NCBI GenBank assembly: GCA_050330955.1
Contig: JBHJHJ010000024.1
Span: 1,217 to 65,216 of the forward strand
Reading direction: 5' to 3'
Length of the DNA: 64,000 nucleotides
Source of the DNA: Elainellaceae cyanobacterium
GTDB lineage: Bacteria > Cyanobacteriota > Cyanobacteriia > CAKZMO01
Shown: piece by piece, positions 21,296-24,503 of the stretch
Layout: each line of letters opens with the position of its first letter
How positions within the stretch are numbered: the stretch's first letter is position 1
The notes under the pieces: generated by a model
Seen by the model: the letters and a program-made list of their open reading frames with translations, nothing else
What the model was told of the DNA's origin: nothing
The model's database searches: none
Program-made: the position numbers and the translations under genes

Positions 21296-22750
21296 CTAGC
21301 GTACCGATAGAGCCGACTCGCTCAAAGCCGCGTCAGAGTCGAGTAGCCAGAGGCCAGATGCAATTTTGGGCATTGTGACCGACAGGCTCAGGCCCTGGCG
21401 CAGCCCGCCCACCAGCAGCGTCAGAACTTCCACAAGCTTCGGGTCCCATCGCTTCCCTGACTCCTCAGCGCAGCGGTCTAAGGCCCGGCCCATCAGCTCT
21501 GCGTTCAAGTTCTTGCCAAAGCGATCGCCCTTGGGAATGTCTTGCTGCTGGGCGAGGCGAGTTTGGAAAACGCTGGCCAACCCTAAAATTCTCGACTCTA
21601 GGGGAATGTTGTCTCCGCCCAGCCGGGCCGGCAGGCCCGAGCCATCCCACCACTCGGTTTGATGGGTGATGATGGTGGCGATCGCCCTCAGGCGGGGCAT
21701 GGTGCGCAGCACTTGCGTTCCGGGATTGAGGGGACAGAACAGCCCTTCGGCTTCAGGTGCGTGGTCTGCCTGGGATATTTCAGAGATGCTGCCGTCAATG
21801 TTTTGCAAAAATGCCAGACGGTGGAGCAGCCCCGCTAGCCGTAAGCGATGGAGCTGCCAACCGGGTAAATCTAGGAGCTGGCCGATGGCCTCGCTCAGGG
21901 CTGCCACCTCAGCCGCCGCCATAGGGTTGCTCATGTCGGCTTGGTCCATCATCTGCGCCAGGCGCAAAAACGCCTGCAGCTTGTTGGAGACCAGATTGTC
22001 AGCCAAGGGCTCAGAAGCGAAATCTGACGCCGCGACACTAGATGCCATAGGCGCATGGGTGCTTTCAGCGGTCTGCAAATAATCGACGACGCGGTGCACA
22101 ATATCGCCCATATTGGGTGCAGAAGATGGGGTATAGTGCACAGCCGCTTCGCCAGACGCCGCACGCTCAATCTGATGGATCTGACCAATCACAGACTGAT
22201 ACAGGGGGGCATCATACTGCTGCAGGTGGTCAGCGGCCAGCTTCGCCGTTTCCAACACCAAGCCCGGCTCAAAGGTCCAAAAGCCGTAAAACTTTCGCTC
22301 CAGGTCATTGGTGGGCTCCCCCAAGACCTGGTAGTCTGCCTCAGAGAGTTCCTGGCACAGGACCATAGCGGTGTAGCCCGGCGACAGGATGATGAGATGC
22401 CACTCTTGAGATACGGGGTCGCTGGTGTCGAGGCTGACCAAGTCAACGTTTGGCTTTTGGCCGGTGGGGTGGTCCTGAAACCCGGCGTCCGGCGCCGCCA
22501 TGATCACGATATGGTTGGCCTTTTCGGCAATCTCGCCGTAGCGGTCGGCCTCCTGCAAGTACCACTTCCCCTGCTGAAAGGCTGTGATCACCAGCGGTTC
22601 ATTATCGACCGTTAGGATAGAATCCTCCAGGGCATGACAGAGGGCCACTAGCGTATTTTTATAGTAGACGCCGAAGTTGAGCGCCTTGCGGGGGTCATTG
22701 CTGTCTTGGTGGGCGTCCCGTAGCTTTTGTAAAATCGAACCGCTAAGCAT
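21296..22750 (-). CDS. Signalling protein: DICT-like N-terminal sensory domain plus degenerate HD-GYP-like C-terminal domain
   Basis: The C-terminus has ITHQTEWWDGSGLP, which resembles the HHExxDGSGYP signature of HD-GYP but with GLP. I see no canonical HD dyad upstream. The N-terminal ~130 aa (LQKLRDAHQD...VITAFQQGKWYLQEADRY) resemble cyanobacterial DICT domains. The ATG at 22750 was chosen, and the radical-SAM gene stops at 22881. Confidence 0.45.
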   Translation of the reverse strand: MLSGSILQKLRDAHQDSNDPRKALNFGVYYKNTLVALCHALEDSILTVDNEPLVITAFQQGKWYLQEADRYGEIAEKANHIVIMAAPDAGFQDHPTGQKPNVDLVSLDTSDPVSQEWHLIILSPGYTAMVLCQELSEADYQVLGEPTNDLERKFYGFWTFEPGLVLETAKLAADHLQQYDAPLYQSVIGQIHQIERAASGEAAVHYTPSSAPNMGDIVHRVVDYLQTAESTHAPMASSVAASDFASEPLADNLVSNKLQAFLRLAQMMDQADMSNPMAAAEVAALSEAIGQLLDLPGWQLHRLRLAGLLHRLAFLQNIDGSISEISQADHAPEAEGLFCPLNPGTQVLRTMPRLRAIATIITHQTEWWDGSGLPARLGGDNIPLESRILGLASVFQTRLAQQQDIPKGDRFGKNLNAELMGRALDRCAEESGKRWDPKLVEVLTLLVGGLRQGLSLSVTMPKIASGLWLLDSDAALSESALSVR

Positions 22751-22880
22751 GATTTCAGTGGTGTTGGGGTTGGATAGGGTAAATATTAAGCAGGTTTTTA
22801 TAGTTGGGGATGGAAAGTTAAAAGGTGAACGGGGCGATCGCCGAGGGCCATGGGAAACGTCTCGCGAAGTGGCACCCGCA

Positions 22881-24503
22881 TCACGACACGGCAGCCACTT
22901 CGCGGGGTTTATGGGTGATGGGGGCTGAGAGCGCTTCTGCCAAGTCACACCGTCCCAAACGCTCCTCTAATATTGCCATGACCTCACGCCCAAAGTCTTT
23001 TGAGTTGCGCTGCCAGGCCTGCAGACAGACCTCGCCAAAGAAAGAGCCCATGGGCTCGGGGTTCCACAGCAGCTTCTTGGCCGTCCAGGGCATCATGCTC
23101 ATGGGATTGTAGTCTGGCTTGAGAATGTCCCGCTTGAGGGCGTAGTGCTCAAGGTGGGTGTGGGGCTGCAGGCCAATGAAGAAGATGGCAGGCTCCACTT
23201 TGTCGGCGCCAAAGATTTCCTCTAAGGCCCGGTGGTAGGCCACGGTCTGGCGGATGGTTTCGGGCCGCTCGTCAATCACGTTAAAGGAGTAGTTGACGGA
23301 GACCACGTCCTTGTAGCCCGCCGTCTTGAGGTCTCGGCAGTTCTGCAGCACGGTCTTAAGGTTGTAGCCCATGCGCATCTTGCGGACAAGCTCTTGGGAG
23401 CCGCTGGTGATGCCGATTTCGAAGTAGTTCATGCCGGTCTGCACCATCAGCTCGCACAGCCTAGGGGTGAGGTTATCAGCGCGGATGTAGGCGGCCCAGT
23501 GGATGTCGTTCATACCTGCCGCTAAGACCTTCTCCAGGAGCTCCACCACGTCGTCGATGTAGCGGCGGGCGGGAATAAACTGGGCATCGGTGAACCAGAA
23601 GTTACGGACGCCGAGGGCGTAGAGCTGCTGCATCTCTCTGACCACCTCGTCTGCCGGGTTAATGCGCACCTGCTTGCCCTCTACCACGGTGTAGATGCAG
23701 TAGCAGCAGTTGTGGGGACAGCCCCGCTTGGTCTGCACCCCGACGTAGAAATCCTGCTCCTGCAGGTAATAGTCAAACTCGGGCCAAATGGTCTCGATGT
23801 AGTCGTAGCGGCAGGCGGATTTTTCCAGGGGCGTGGGGCTTTCGTGAATCATGCGATCGCGGGGCTGGGTCTCTCCGACCACGTAGCACCGCTCGTCGCT
23901 GAAGTCCTGGCCCTTAAGCAGCTTCTCTAGCAGCAGTTCCCCTTCGCCAACGGAGACCACTGTGCCCTGGGGCAGGCGATCGCTCATCTGCTCGTAAAAG
24001 ACGCTCACCGCTCCGCCGCCCACCACGGCCCGCACCTCTGGGACGTAGCGCTGCGCCCGCCGAATGCCCCGGCGAATCAAGCCTAGGTTGCGCCACAGCT
24101 CGGTGTAGTAGGCAGTGGTGACCCGCAGCCCGCCAAAAGCGCCCCGCAGCTTCACCAACGGGTTGCGGGCGTAATAAAACTCAAACGCGTTCTGCAGGGG
24201 ATTGCCGCCGCGTCCGCCCACTGGCGCATAGATTTGAATATCCCGCCAGGAGAAGACTAGCAGCGTGGGGCGAAACGCGTCGATGCACCGGTCTAGCGCT
24301 CCAGAAAAGTCAAGGGGGGGAACAGTCCCTAAGTCGAAAATCCGCTGAGCTACGCAGGGCAGGGCCTTGTGGACGTGGTCAGCCAAGTAGACCACGCCGA
24401 TGGGAAAGATGGGGTTGCAAGGCAGCCGAACGTAGAGAACGCGCTGCTGGCCGCGATTCTGTGGGTTGTGCTCAGCCTGGCTGGAAGGGAGATACGAAGT
24501 CAT
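22881..24503 (-). CDS. B12-binding-domain radical SAM protein
   Basis: TKRGCPHNCCYCIY is a CxxxCxxC radical-SAM cluster motif. The N-terminal ~150 aa have a cobalamin-binding Rossmann character. 540 aa. It may belong to the cyanobacterial family annotated as photosystem II high-light acclimation radical SAM. Confidence 0.75.
   Translation of the reverse strand: MTSYLPSSQAEHNPQNRGQQRVLYVRLPCNPIFPIGVVYLADHVHKALPCVAQRIFDLGTVPPLDFSGALDRCIDAFRPTLLVFSWRDIQIYAPVGGRGGNPLQNAFEFYYARNPLVKLRGAFGGLRVTTAYYTELWRNLGLIRRGIRRAQRYVPEVRAVVGGGAVSVFYEQMSDRLPQGTVVSVGEGELLLEKLLKGQDFSDERCYVVGETQPRDRMIHESPTPLEKSACRYDYIETIWPEFDYYLQEQDFYVGVQTKRGCPHNCCYCIYTVVEGKQVRINPADEVVREMQQLYALGVRNFWFTDAQFIPARRYIDDVVELLEKVLAAGMNDIHWAAYIRADNLTPRLCELMVQTGMNYFEIGITSGSQELVRKMRMGYNLKTVLQNCRDLKTAGYKDVVSVNYSFNVIDERPETIRQTVAYHRALEEIFGADKVEPAIFFIGLQPHTHLEHYALKRDILKPDYNPMSMMPWTAKKLLWNPEPMGSFFGEVCLQAWQRNSKDFGREVMAILEERLGRCDLAEALSAPITHKPREVAAVS

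What the first reader, a model, noticed from the sequence alone, without database searches (positions are those of the whole stretch)
21296..24503. B12-radical-SAM gene apparently co-transcribed with a DICT-like / degenerate HD-GYP signalling protein
The radical SAM gene (CxxxCxxC, B12-binding N-domain) ends at 22881. The next gene on the same strand starts at 22750 using the internal ATG. That protein ends with HQTEWWDGSGLP. This resembles the HD-GYP c-di-GMP phosphodiesterase signature but has Leu for Tyr and no clear HD metal dyad upstream, so it may be a non-catalytic c-di-GMP sensor. An operon linking a cobalamin radical enzyme, possibly of the high-light acclimation family, to a c-di-GMP-type sensor is unexpected.
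Basis: partly seen in the sequence, partly recalled or inferred. Interest (0 to 1): 0.5.

Follow-up and report, generated by a model that had tools for sequence, protein, structure and literature searches.

The report
Radical-SAM, dead HD-GYP sensor, pentapeptide cluster
A cyanobacterial gene needed elsewhere for coping with strong light sits in a widely conserved cluster with a sensor-like protein whose c-di-GMP-degrading domain has lost its catalytic residues and with a pentapeptide-repeat partner, which gives a testable lead on three poorly understood protein families.

Summary
On the minus strand lie an Slr0320-family B12/radical-SAM gene (22881-24503) and, 130 bp downstream, a 484-aa protein gene (21296-22750) with DICT, CHASE6_C and HD-GYP (HD_5) domains.

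The HD-GYP domain is degenerate in the window and in all 116 aligned homologues. HD is HR, HH is Q-T/S, the other His and Asp ligands are gone, and GYP is G-[Q/L/Y]-P. It is nevertheless as conserved as the sensor domain, so it is a pseudo-enzyme under selection.

- **Pentapeptide partner.** A pentapeptide-repeat gene (20474-21103) follows in 74 of 79 informative loci, overlaps by 4 bp in Nostocales, and is fused to the sensor in one lineage.
- **Radical-SAM linkage.** The radical-SAM gene lies upstream on the same strand in 70 of 77 informative loci, 63 of them within 300 bp. Unrelated flanking genes are not conserved.
- **Fold of the sensor module.** The DICT/CHASE6_C module models as a TrmB-effector-domain/PLD-like fold.

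The c-di-GMP-sensor idea is not supported. About one of the nine c-di-GMP contacts of the receptor DvhD is retained, and the two substrate loops are the least conserved parts of the domain. Co-transcription in this genome is plausible but unproven.

This is a new variant of a known kind, of moderate interest.

The parts
22881..24503 (-). Slr0320-family B12-binding/radical-SAM gene (540 aa)
   Evidence: NCBIfam NF045585 at 1055 bits (cutoff 775) and Pfam Radical_SAM at 6.5e-19. It is 76-91% identical to the upstream gene in 70 related loci.
23697..23720 (-). CPHNCCYC, the CxxxCxxC [4Fe-4S]/SAM motif (residues 262-269)
   Evidence: Direct reading of the translation.
22751..22880 (-). 130-bp spacer between the radical-SAM gene and the sensor gene
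   Evidence: No terminator-like or promoter-like consensus. The RNA fold has z = 0.02. No Rfam match. The sequence is not conserved between loci, and the spacer is 17 bp or less, or overlapping, in 9 loci.
21296..22750 (-). Gene for the 484-aa DICT / CHASE6_C / degenerate HD-GYP protein
   Evidence: Pfam. More than 2000 homologues, with the named top hits all cyanobacterial at about 60% full-length identity. AF2 model with pLDDT 82.8 and pTM 0.79.
22064..22738 (-). DICT (residues 5-134) plus CHASE6_C (149-229): a cytoplasmic alpha/beta sensor module
21437..22000 (-). Degenerate HD-GYP (HD_5) domain, residues 251-438
21809..21829 (-). LLHRLAF, in place of the canonical LLHDxGK (HD to HR, K to F)
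   Evidence: Alignments to PmGH and V-cGAP3. R311 is present in 115 of 116 homologues.
21629..21664 (-). HQTEWWDGSGLP, in place of the canonical xHHExxDGxGYP (HH to QT, Y to L)
20474..21103 (-). Pentapeptide-repeat protein gene (209 aa), the conserved partner of the sensor gene
   Evidence: Pfam Pentapeptide at 1.6e-49. It lies downstream on the same strand within 300 bp in 74 of 80 loci, with a 4-bp overlap in many Nostocales. It is fused to the sensor in P0124. It is also adjacent in Microcoleus.
24962..26411 (+). Divergently transcribed conserved neighbours: DUF1830, DUF4079 and a 186-aa membrane protein
   Evidence: Pfam. They are present upstream of the radical-SAM gene, on the opposite strand, in 58, 33 and 23 of 80 loci respectively.

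Best explanation
**What it is.** The region is a conserved cyanobacterial gene cluster, read on the minus strand. It comprises (1) an Slr0320-family cobalamin/radical-SAM enzyme, (2) a soluble 484-aa sensor-like protein and (3) a pentapeptide-repeat protein.

**The sensor-like protein.** Its N-terminal DICT/CHASE6_C module has the fold of the TrmB effector-binding domain, which is a PLD-like fold, but it lacks the PLD catalytic motif. It is most likely a small-molecule-binding sensor. Its C-terminal HD-GYP domain is a pseudo-enzyme. It has lost the metal ligands needed to hydrolyse c-di-GMP and most residues known to hold the nucleotide, yet it is under strong purifying selection.

**How it most likely works (inferred).** The dead HD-GYP domain serves as a conformational or protein-interaction output. 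The pentapeptide-repeat beta-helix protein is its obligate partner. This two-protein module acts in the same photosystem II high-light acclimation pathway as the radical-SAM enzyme that it usually follows, either by regulating that enzyme or by relaying a signal tied to its substrate or product.

**Shown versus inferred.**
- Shown: gene identities, degeneracy of the catalytic site, folds, synteny and the fusion.
- Inferred: ligand sensing, the physical partnership, and the link to the radical-SAM function.
For: **Identities.**

**Dead active site, in the window and family-wide.** The H of HxxRV is Ala, HD is HR (115 of 116), the K of HDxGK is F or L, the next His is Pro, HH is Q-T/S, and the two Asp are Ser/Ala and Gln.

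**Selection on the dead domain.** Median identity to the window is 0.62 for the HD-GYP region against 0.64 for the sensor module, and 44 of 188 HD_5 columns are invariant.

**Descent from an active architecture.** Distant DICT-HD-GYP proteins (P0163, P0179, P0140; 28-33% identity) keep all catalytic motifs.

**Pentapeptide partner.**
- It lies downstream within 300 bp in 74 of 80 loci, with a median gap of 32 bp.
- It overlaps by 4 bp in about 25 Nostocales loci.
- It is naturally fused in the 660-aa P0124 and its cluster members, found on contigs up to 190 kb.
- It is also adjacent in the divergent Microcoleus clade.

**Radical-SAM linkage.**
- It lies on the same strand upstream in 70 of 77 informative loci, and within 300 bp in 63.
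- The gap is 17 bp or less, or overlapping, in 9 loci.
- The loci span Nostocales, Leptolyngbyaceae, Elainellales, Oculatellaceae and Oscillatoriales-type genera.
- As a control, the window's other neighbours (proA, sulfotransferase, tilS, orf582) match 0-2 of the 80 loci.

**Phenotype of the radical-SAM family.** A slr0320 knockout is high-light sensitive with impaired QA-to-QB electron transfer (PMC8065906). This was confirmed independently (bioRxiv 10.1101/2025.07.27.667079).
Against: - No experiment links the sensor or the pentapeptide protein to high-light acclimation or to the radical-SAM enzyme.
- The radical-SAM linkage is not universal. Seven informative loci lack it. A divergent clade (P0123, P0124) instead sits beside LmeA-family genes.
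- As I recall, and not tested here, Synechocystis slr0320 is followed by era rather than by a DICT gene.
- The 130-bp spacer in this window could hold its own promoter; an AT-rich TATAAA...TAATAT stretch lies about 35-55 nt before the ATG.
- No ligand is known for any DICT domain (PMC8846402).
- The fold match to TrmB does not identify a ligand.
Confidence: 0.6

Rival explanations
1. The degenerate HD-GYP domain is a receptor for c-di-GMP or another cyclic dinucleotide. It would couple second-messenger levels to the radical-SAM/high-light pathway, in the manner of DvhD.
For: - The best sequence match in the PDB is V-cGAP3. The query aligns to both of its HD-GYP domains, and the N-terminal one scores highest with the family profile. 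I recall that N-terminal domain being described as degenerate and regulatory, but I did not check this.
- The E-W-W-[D/N]-G-x-G-x-P ... IP-x-ESRI core of the GYP loop is invariant.
Against: - I mapped the DvhD contacts with chain index + 490 = paper numbering, which fits all eleven residues named in the paper.
- In the alignment, Y523 corresponds to Ser. The KPGxL loop that holds L577 is absent. Y621, the GYP Tyr, corresponds to Leu here and is Tyr in only 14 of 116 homologues.
- M646 falls at a variable position. R650, Y652 and R653, the RPY(R/K) motif, are absent. Only E668 has a plausible equivalent (E430; Gln in the consensus).
- The Lys of HDxGK is Phe or Leu.
- The two loops that contact the substrate in canonical domains are the least conserved segments (0.42 and 0.34, against 0.83-0.91 for their neighbours).
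- One Microcystis genome reported with this protein has no GGDEF protein listed (PMC7063779). It is a draft genome, so this is weak evidence.
Confidence: 0.2
2. The gene order is inherited neighbourhood only. The radical-SAM gene and the sensor/pentapeptide pair would be separate transcription units with unrelated functions.
For: - The spacer is usually 50-160 bp (median 98) and its sequence is not conserved.
- A divergent clade of the sensor lies next to LmeA genes with no radical-SAM gene.
- Seven informative loci lack the radical-SAM gene within 6 kb.
- The radical-SAM family also occurs in Prochlorococcus (PMM1498; bioRxiv 10.64898/2026.04.15.718746), where I would not expect the sensor. 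That expectation was not tested.
Against: - Adjacency on the same strand persists in 63-70 of 77 loci whose sensor proteins are only about 57% identical. The other neighbours of the window have been lost in all or nearly all of these loci.
- In 9 loci the gap is 17 bp or less, or the genes overlap, which leaves no room for a separate promoter or terminator.
- No terminator-like element is present in this window.
Confidence: 0.2
3. The protein is an active, if unusual, HD-GYP phosphodiesterase, as assumed for the Microcystis DICT-HD-GYP proteins listed as PDEs.
For: It matches Pfam HD_5 above threshold (79.5 bits against 27.2) and NCBIfam NosR-family PDE weakly (78 bits against a cutoff of 400). 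It is listed as a 'PDE (DICT-HD-GYP)' in PMC7063779.
Against: All but one of the metal-binding residues of PmGH-type sites are replaced, in all 116 homologues. DvhD, which has comparable losses, shows no hydrolysis with any metal (PMC13090378). The Microcystis paper itself flags the YR-GVP variant as possibly degenerate.
Confidence: 0.02
4. The protein is a thiol- or metal-based redox sensor. Its only four cysteines would form a redox-active or metal/cluster site that reports the redox state of the cell under high light. These are C38 and C132 in DICT, and C339 and C427 in the HD-GYP domain.
For: - The window protein has exactly four Cys. Three are invariant and the fourth is present in 112 of 116 homologues.
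- C38 is Ser in all three catalytically intact distant DICT-HD-GYP proteins and C132 is Cys in only one of them, so the cysteines are largely a feature of the degenerate family.
- The genomic link to a high-light gene fits redox sensing.
Against: Cysteine geometry could not be examined because no coordinates were returned. There is no CxxC or cluster-type motif. Invariance alone does not show redox chemistry.
Confidence: 0.15

Closest known systems
DvhD of Desulfovibrio vulgaris (PDB 9RBZ/9RC0): a degenerate HD-GYP c-di-GMP receptor
   Different: - DvhD is a membrane protein (dCache-PAS-HD-GYP) that keeps the GYP Tyr, the RPY(R)-type loop and the KPGxL loop that hold c-di-GMP. These are missing here.
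- The sensor module here is DICT/CHASE6_C and is cytoplasmic.
- The partner here is a pentapeptide protein, not a LapG-type protease.
Canonical HD-GYP phosphodiesterases (PmGH 4MCW, PA4781 4R8Z, RpfG) and intact DICT-HD-GYP proteins (P0163, P0179, P0140)
   Same: The fold is the same, and for the DICT-HD-GYP proteins the domain order is the same too. The scaffold of the GYP loop and the IPLxxRI helix are conserved.
   Different: All catalytic metal ligands but one are replaced, and the substrate loops are lost. The cyanobacterial family also has a conserved C-terminal extension, GLxQGLxL..PKIAxGxWLLD (residues 448-471), which canonical domains lack.
Slr0320 of Synechocystis sp. PCC 6803 (photosystem II high-light acclimation radical-SAM protein)
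   Same: The window's radical-SAM protein is an equivalog-level match over its full length.
   Different: The substrate and reaction of Slr0320 are unknown (PMC8065906). That paper does not mention a linked sensor/pentapeptide pair. As I recall, and not tested here, the Synechocystis gene lacks this neighbour.
TrmB effector (sugar)-binding domain / PLD-like fold
   Different: - Sequence identity is 8-13%.
- No HxK(x)4D motif is present, by direct reading of the sequence.
- There is no DNA-binding domain.
- The ligand is unknown.
Microcystis 'DICT-HD-GYP PDE' (PMC7063779)
   Same: The architecture is the same. That paper already notes a variant YR-GVP motif and asks whether the domain is degenerate.
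   Different: That work treated the protein as a PDE. It did not report the gene neighbourhood, the pentapeptide partner or the fold of DICT.

Membership tests
HD-GYP c-di-GMP phosphodiesterase (catalytic) | HD-GYP fold / Pfam HD_5 match | tested here: met
HD-GYP c-di-GMP phosphodiesterase (catalytic) | Complete metal-ligand set: H(xxRV), HD, H, HH, D | tested here: not met
   The residues read Ala, HR, Pro, Q-T and Ser in the window. The same pattern holds in 116 homologues.
HD-GYP c-di-GMP phosphodiesterase (catalytic) | GYP motif with Tyr | tested here: not met
   The window reads GLP. In the family the position is Q in 65, L in 14 and Y in 14 of 116.
HD-GYP c-di-GMP phosphodiesterase (catalytic) | Hydrolysis of c-di-GMP | not testable with these tools
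   This needs an enzyme assay.
Degenerate HD-GYP cyclic-dinucleotide receptor (DvhD type) | Loss of metal ligands with the fold retained | tested here: met
Degenerate HD-GYP cyclic-dinucleotide receptor (DvhD type) | Conservation of the nucleotide-contacting residues (DvhD Y523, L577, K582, Y621, M646, R650, Y652, R653, E668) | tested here: not met
   About one of nine has an equivalent (E430/Q). The RPY(R/K) and KPGxL loops are absent and poorly conserved.
Degenerate HD-GYP cyclic-dinucleotide receptor (DvhD type) | Measured nucleotide binding | not testable with these tools
   This needs ITC, DRaCALA or thermal shift.
DICT domain proteins (PF10069) | Profile match above the gathering score | tested here: met
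   144.9 bits (cutoff 23.8), covering profile positions 2-128 of 129.
Slr0320-family radical-SAM (NF045585) | Equivalog score over the full length | tested here: met
   1055.4 bits (cutoff 775), covering profile positions 1-511 of 511.
Slr0320-family radical-SAM (NF045585) | CxxxCxxC cluster motif | tested here: met
   CPHNCCYC at residues 262-269.
Slr0320-family radical-SAM (NF045585) | Cobalamin-binding N-terminal domain | tested here: inconclusive
   Pfam B12-binding scores 20.7 bits, below the 32.1 cutoff. The secondary NCBIfam hits are B12-radical-SAM families.
Slr0320-family radical-SAM (NF045585) | Role in high-light acclimation of photosystem II | not testable with these tools
   The phenotype is known only for Synechocystis (PMC8065906).
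Pentapeptide-repeat proteins (PF00805) | Tandem A(D/N)LXX repeats / profile match | tested here: met
   165.4 bits in 6 stretches. PDB matches to pentapeptide beta-helix proteins.
TrmB effector-binding domain / PLD-like fold | Structural similarity of the fold | tested here: met
TrmB effector-binding domain / PLD-like fold | PLD catalytic HxK(x)4D motif | tested here: not met
   No His in residues 1-230 is followed by x-K, by direct reading of the translation.
Operon (single transcript) of the radical-SAM and sensor genes in this genome | A transcript spanning the 130-bp spacer | not testable with these tools
   Only indirect evidence is available. There is no terminator-like site, and the spacer is 17 bp or less, or overlapping, in 9 related genomes.

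The most novel reading that the evidence does not exclude
A c-di-GMP-independent signalling module specific to cyanobacteria. It would consist of a TrmB-like small-molecule sensor (DICT/CHASE6_C) fused to an HD-GYP pseudo-enzyme, working as a complex with a pentapeptide-repeat beta-helix protein. It would control or assist the Slr0320 cobalamin radical-SAM enzyme in high-light acclimation of photosystem II. If so, it would give a first function to the DICT domain, to a cyanobacterial pentapeptide-repeat protein and to a dead HD-GYP that no longer binds nucleotide.
Probability: 0.3. Interest if true: 0.65.

Novelty: new variant of a known kind. Interest (0 to 1): 0.45.

Why it matters
**The open problem.** Slr0320 is one of the few genes with a clear high-light and photosystem II acceptor-side phenotype whose chemistry is unknown. 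A conserved neighbourhood gives concrete candidates for its regulators or partners.

**Other families that gain a lead.**
- The DICT and CHASE6_C domains have no known ligand or role.
- Cyanobacterial pentapeptide-repeat proteins are abundant and almost all are unexplained.
- Degenerate HD-GYP domains have only recently been shown to act as receptors.

**Consequences for annotation.** The family is annotated as 'metal-dependent phosphohydrolase' or as 'HD-GYP ... (c-di-GMP phosphodiesterase class II)', and it has been counted as a PDE in at least one genome census. If it neither cleaves nor binds c-di-GMP, those annotations are wrong, and the domain would be an example of a second-messenger enzyme fold reused for another purpose.

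Tried and rejected
- **Longer GTG ORF (21296-22948).** Rejected. It overlaps the radical-SAM gene, and the MLxGSIL N-terminus shared by the homologues fixes the ATG at 22750.
- **Promoter/terminator scan of 20300-25500.** Nothing was found in either spacer, and the counts were at or below the shuffle expectation.
- **RNA fold of the radical-SAM/sensor spacer.** z = 0.02, so no significant structure.
- **Rfam at a permissive threshold over 19000-26000.** No match, and so no cobalamin riboswitch.
- **RpaB-type HLR1-like repeat (TTACA N5 TTACA, up to 2 mismatches).** There were 16 matches against 19.9 expected. The single weak match upstream of the radical-SAM gene (24613-24627) is not meaningful.
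- **Spacer conservation across 63 loci.** No shared motif, only clade-specific similarity and simple repeats.
- **afdb50 fold library.** I wanted it to find orthologues in model organisms, but it was not available.
- **PDB search with the Nostoc pentapeptide neighbour.** I hoped for a PCC 7120 locus tag. It found only generic repeat matches, and All3740/HetL is not the orthologue.
- **Literature searches.** There were no papers for DICT with pentapeptide. Only two papers were listed for 'DICT domain', and neither is functional.
- **Second structure prediction.** I considered predicting the natural fusion protein to see the interface. I did not, because the tool returns no coordinates or inter-domain error estimates, so an interface could not be judged.

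
Full report
**What is in the sequence**

Both genes lie on the minus strand.

The upstream gene (22881-24503, 540 aa) is an equivalog-level member of NCBIfam NF045585, 'photosystem II high light acclimation radical SAM protein'. It scores 1055 bits against a cutoff of 775, over the full profile. It matches Pfam Radical_SAM at 6.5e-19. It carries CPHNCCYC (CxxxCxxC) at residues 262-269, nt 23697-23720. The Pfam B12-binding match is below threshold (20.7 against 32.1 bits). 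The next-best NCBIfam hits are all cobalamin-dependent radical-SAM families.

The downstream gene begins at the ATG at 22750. The longest ORF reaches a GTG at 22948 and would overlap the radical-SAM gene, but the N-terminus MLxGSIL is shared by the homologues, with M1, G4 and S5 invariant in 116. Its 484-aa product has these domains:
- DICT, residues 5-134, 1.6e-42
- CHASE6_C, residues 149-229, 9.5e-18
- HD_5 (HD-GYP), residues 251-438, 3.2e-22

It is residues 363-374 (nt 21629-21664), and 110 residues follow it.

The two genes are 130 bp apart.

**The HD-GYP domain is a pseudo-enzyme, in the whole family**

I aligned the protein, and a 20-sequence family profile, to the solved HD-GYP proteins V-cGAP3, PA4781 and PmGH. 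I also made a multiple alignment that adds DvhD and three catalytically intact DICT-HD-GYP proteins. The canonical positions read as follows.

| Canonical position | In the window | In the family |
|---|---|---|
| His of HxxRV | Ala | mostly Ala |
| HD | H310-R311 | R in 115 of 116 |
| Lys of HDxGK | Phe | F or L |
| His before the conserved Gly | Pro | mostly Pro |
| HH of HHE | Q-T | Q-T/S |
| two Asp of xDxFDA | Ser, Gln | Ala/Ser; Gln invariant |
| Tyr of GYP | Leu | Q 65, L 14, Y 14 of 116 |

The domain is nonetheless as conserved as the sensor module. Median identity to the window is 0.62 against 0.64, and 44 of 188 columns are invariant. So it is maintained for a non-catalytic purpose.

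An exhaustive search of 1.84 billion cluster representatives found only a handful of full-length clusters of this family (P0064, P0121, P0123, P0124). At 28-33% identity it also found DICT-HD-GYP proteins with every catalytic motif intact (P0163, P0179, P0140). The cyanobacterial family is therefore a degenerate derivative of an active architecture.

**Is it a c-di-GMP receptor?**

DvhD is a degenerate HD-GYP, with SQ for HD and MN for HH. It binds c-di-GMP without metal and does not hydrolyse it (PMC13090378).

I recovered the DvhD sequence from an alignment. Chain index + 490 reproduces all eleven residues named in the paper. I then placed them in the multiple alignment:
- Y523 corresponds to Ser.
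- L577 sits in the KPGxL loop, which is absent here.
- K582 has no equivalent.
- Y621, the GYP Tyr, corresponds to Leu.
- M646 falls at a variable position.
- R650, Y652 and R653 form the RPY(R/K) motif, which is absent.
- Only E668 has a plausible equivalent (E430; Gln in the consensus).

The two segments that replace these loops are the least conserved parts of the domain. Residues 316-338 score 0.42 and residues 397-422 score 0.34, against 0.83-0.91 for their neighbours. Residues 317-336 are also the low-confidence part of the model.

Binding of c-di-GMP in the known mode is therefore not supported. Binding in some other mode cannot be excluded without an assay.

**The sensor module**

DICT and CHASE6_C have no known ligand or role (PMC8846402). 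Only two papers in the library were listed for 'DICT domain'.

- PLD-fold proteins: NucT 11.6, FAM83B 10.9, Zucchini 10.5, and the polyphosphate kinase C-domains

No HxK(x)4D motif is present. The module therefore resembles the non-catalytic, ligand-binding use of that fold in TrmB.

The protein has no predicted membrane segment, so the 'extracellular' label of CHASE6_C does not apply here. Invariant residues include C38-H39, E42-D43, H94, E116-W117-H118 and C132-Q133-E134. The only four cysteines of the protein (38, 132, 339, 427) are invariant or nearly so.

**Gene neighbourhood**

I fetched eighty loci encoding relatives at 55-73% identity. They come from Nostocales, Leptolyngbyaceae, Elainellales, Oculatellaceae, Phormidesmis, Argonema, Caldora, Symploca and others. 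I compared them with the window's proteins.

*Radical-SAM gene.*
- It lies upstream on the same strand in 70 loci. Three of the remaining ten have too little upstream sequence to judge.
- In 63 loci the gap is 300 bp or less, with a median of 98 bp.
- In 9 loci the gap is 17 bp or less, or the genes overlap by one base. That leaves no room for separate transcription signals.

*Pentapeptide-repeat gene (window 20474-21103; Pfam 1.6e-49).*
- It lies downstream on the same strand within 300 bp in 74 loci, with a median gap of 32 bp.
- In about 25 Nostocales loci it overlaps the sensor gene by 4 bp, which is typical of translational coupling.

*Wider block.* Upstream of the radical-SAM gene and divergently oriented, DUF1830, DUF4079 and a membrane protein recur in 58, 33 and 23 loci.

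*Control.* The window's other neighbours (proA, a sulfotransferase-family gene, tilS, orf582) match 0-2 of the 80 loci. The conserved order is therefore specific to this block.

**A natural fusion and a second clade**

P0124 (660 aa) is DICT-CHASE6_C-degenerate HD-GYP fused to a pentapeptide-repeat domain. It has four cluster members, on contigs up to 190 kb. This Rosetta-stone fusion is the strongest evidence that the sensor and the pentapeptide protein work together physically.

P0124 and the Microcoleus protein P0123 (HD replaced by FR) belong to a more divergent clade, 45-47% identical to the window. Its neighbours are LmeA-family genes rather than the radical-SAM gene. In Microcoleus a separate pentapeptide gene again follows directly.

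The core unit is thus the sensor plus the pentapeptide protein. The radical-SAM linkage is a frequent feature of the window's clade, not a universal one.

**Transcription in this genome**

The 130-bp spacer has no terminator-like or sigma-70-like consensus. It has no significant RNA structure (z = 0.02) and no Rfam match. It does contain an AT-rich stretch that could serve as a -10 element.

The sensor-pentapeptide gap in the window is 192 bp, unusually long for the family.

Co-transcription of the three genes is plausible but unproven here.

**What is known about the parts**

Disruption of slr0320 in Synechocystis gives normal growth in normal light, poor growth in high light, and slowed QA-to-QB electron transfer. 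The authors speculate about quinone methylation but show no chemistry and do not discuss neighbours (PMC8065906). An adaptive-evolution study found recurrent slr0320 mutations and confirmed the knockout phenotype (bioRxiv 10.1101/2025.07.27.667079).

A Microcystis comparative study lists a DICT-HD-GYP 'PDE' in all 24 genomes. It notes a YR-GVP variant and asks whether the domain is degenerate (PMC7063779).

A review census of Synechocystis and Thermosynechococcus lists only CheY- or GAF-linked HD-GYP proteins (PMC10124867).

I found no paper linking DICT, pentapeptide proteins and slr0320.

**Most likely mechanism**

*Shown:* a dead but conserved HD-GYP; a TrmB-like sensor fold; a conserved, sometimes fused, pentapeptide partner; and frequent same-strand linkage to the high-light radical-SAM gene.

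*Inferred:*
- The DICT/CHASE6_C module binds a small molecule or senses redox state through its conserved His/Glu/Asp patch or its cysteines.
- The pseudo-HD-GYP transmits this as a conformational or protein-interaction output to the pentapeptide beta-helix protein.
- The pair acts in the pathway of the radical-SAM enzyme.

I put 0.6 on this package. The descriptive parts are near certain. The functional coupling to the radical-SAM enzyme stands at roughly 0.5. Rival readings, not mutually exclusive:
- cyclic-dinucleotide receptor, 0.2
- neighbourhood without functional coupling, 0.2
- thiol/metal redox sensor, 0.15
- active PDE, 0.02

**Verdict**

The c-di-GMP-sensor reading is weakened by the loss of the nucleotide-contacting residues.

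Additions:
- the conserved pentapeptide partner, including a natural fusion
- quantified synteny with the Slr0320-family gene
- an active ancestral architecture
- a fold assignment for DICT

The protein family is already in databases and its odd motif was noted once in Microcystis. I therefore class this as a new variant of a known kind (degenerate second-messenger domains), of moderate interest.

Noticed in passing
window 24962-26411 (+): DUF1830, DUF4079 and a 186-aa membrane protein lie divergently from the radical-SAM gene. The same divergent arrangement recurs in 58, 33 and 23 of the 80 related loci, so the conserved block is larger than the finding.
   Followed up: partly
L081 1775-3757; L084 and L085 8001-9983: A natural fusion of DICT-CHASE6_C-degenerate HD-GYP with a pentapeptide-repeat domain (660 aa). 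In L084/L085 an LmeA-family gene (PF11209) precedes it with no gap, and fructose-1,6-bisphosphatase follows it in all three loci. No radical-SAM gene is nearby.
   Followed up: partly
L082 4893-8978 (Microcoleus): A divergent clade of the sensor (HD replaced by FR) is flanked on both sides by LmeA-family genes and followed by its own pentapeptide gene (7501-8094). A Psb35-family gene lies nearby at 3329-3541.
   Followed up: partly
L006, L011, L019, L021: Four loci lack the downstream pentapeptide gene. Three of them (L006, L019, L021) share a similar radical-SAM/sensor spacer and may form one clade. I did not examine whether the partner moved or was lost.
   Followed up: no
window 21104-21295: The gap between the sensor gene and the pentapeptide gene is 192 bp here, against a family median of 32 bp and 28 bp in a close relative (L001). 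It contains a GCGATCGC (HIP1-type) palindrome.
   Followed up: no
L024, L029, L040, L068, L069: In these loci 1.2-3.9 kb separates the radical-SAM gene from the sensor gene, which suggests inserted genes or elements. I did not examine the content.
   Followed up: no
window 26427-28318: An RsbW-like HATPase_c_2 kinase gene (26427-26924, minus strand) lies next to a receiver-PP2C (SpoIIE) phosphatase gene (27173-28318, plus strand). The two domains are of the kinds found in partner-switching systems. The pair is conserved only in a close relative (L002).
   Followed up: no
window 12122-17788 (-): An RTX calcium-binding repeat protein gene (14173-15732) is flanked by two sulfotransferase-family genes (12122-13249 and 15872-17788). 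This may be a secreted-protein or glycan-sulfation cluster.
   Followed up: no
window 20211-20969 (+): A 252-aa ORF lies antisense to the pentapeptide gene. It is a shadow of the repeat, rich in Ala, Pro, Arg and Leu, and is not a gene.
   Followed up: yes
P0168, P0175, P0180, P0186: Tandem HD-[HD-GYP] proteins, with the same two-domain layout as V-cGAP3, are the closest non-DICT relatives of the degenerate domain. Their N-terminal domains carry HHEWWDGTGYP-like motifs that resemble the window's HQTEWWDGSGLP.
   Followed up: no
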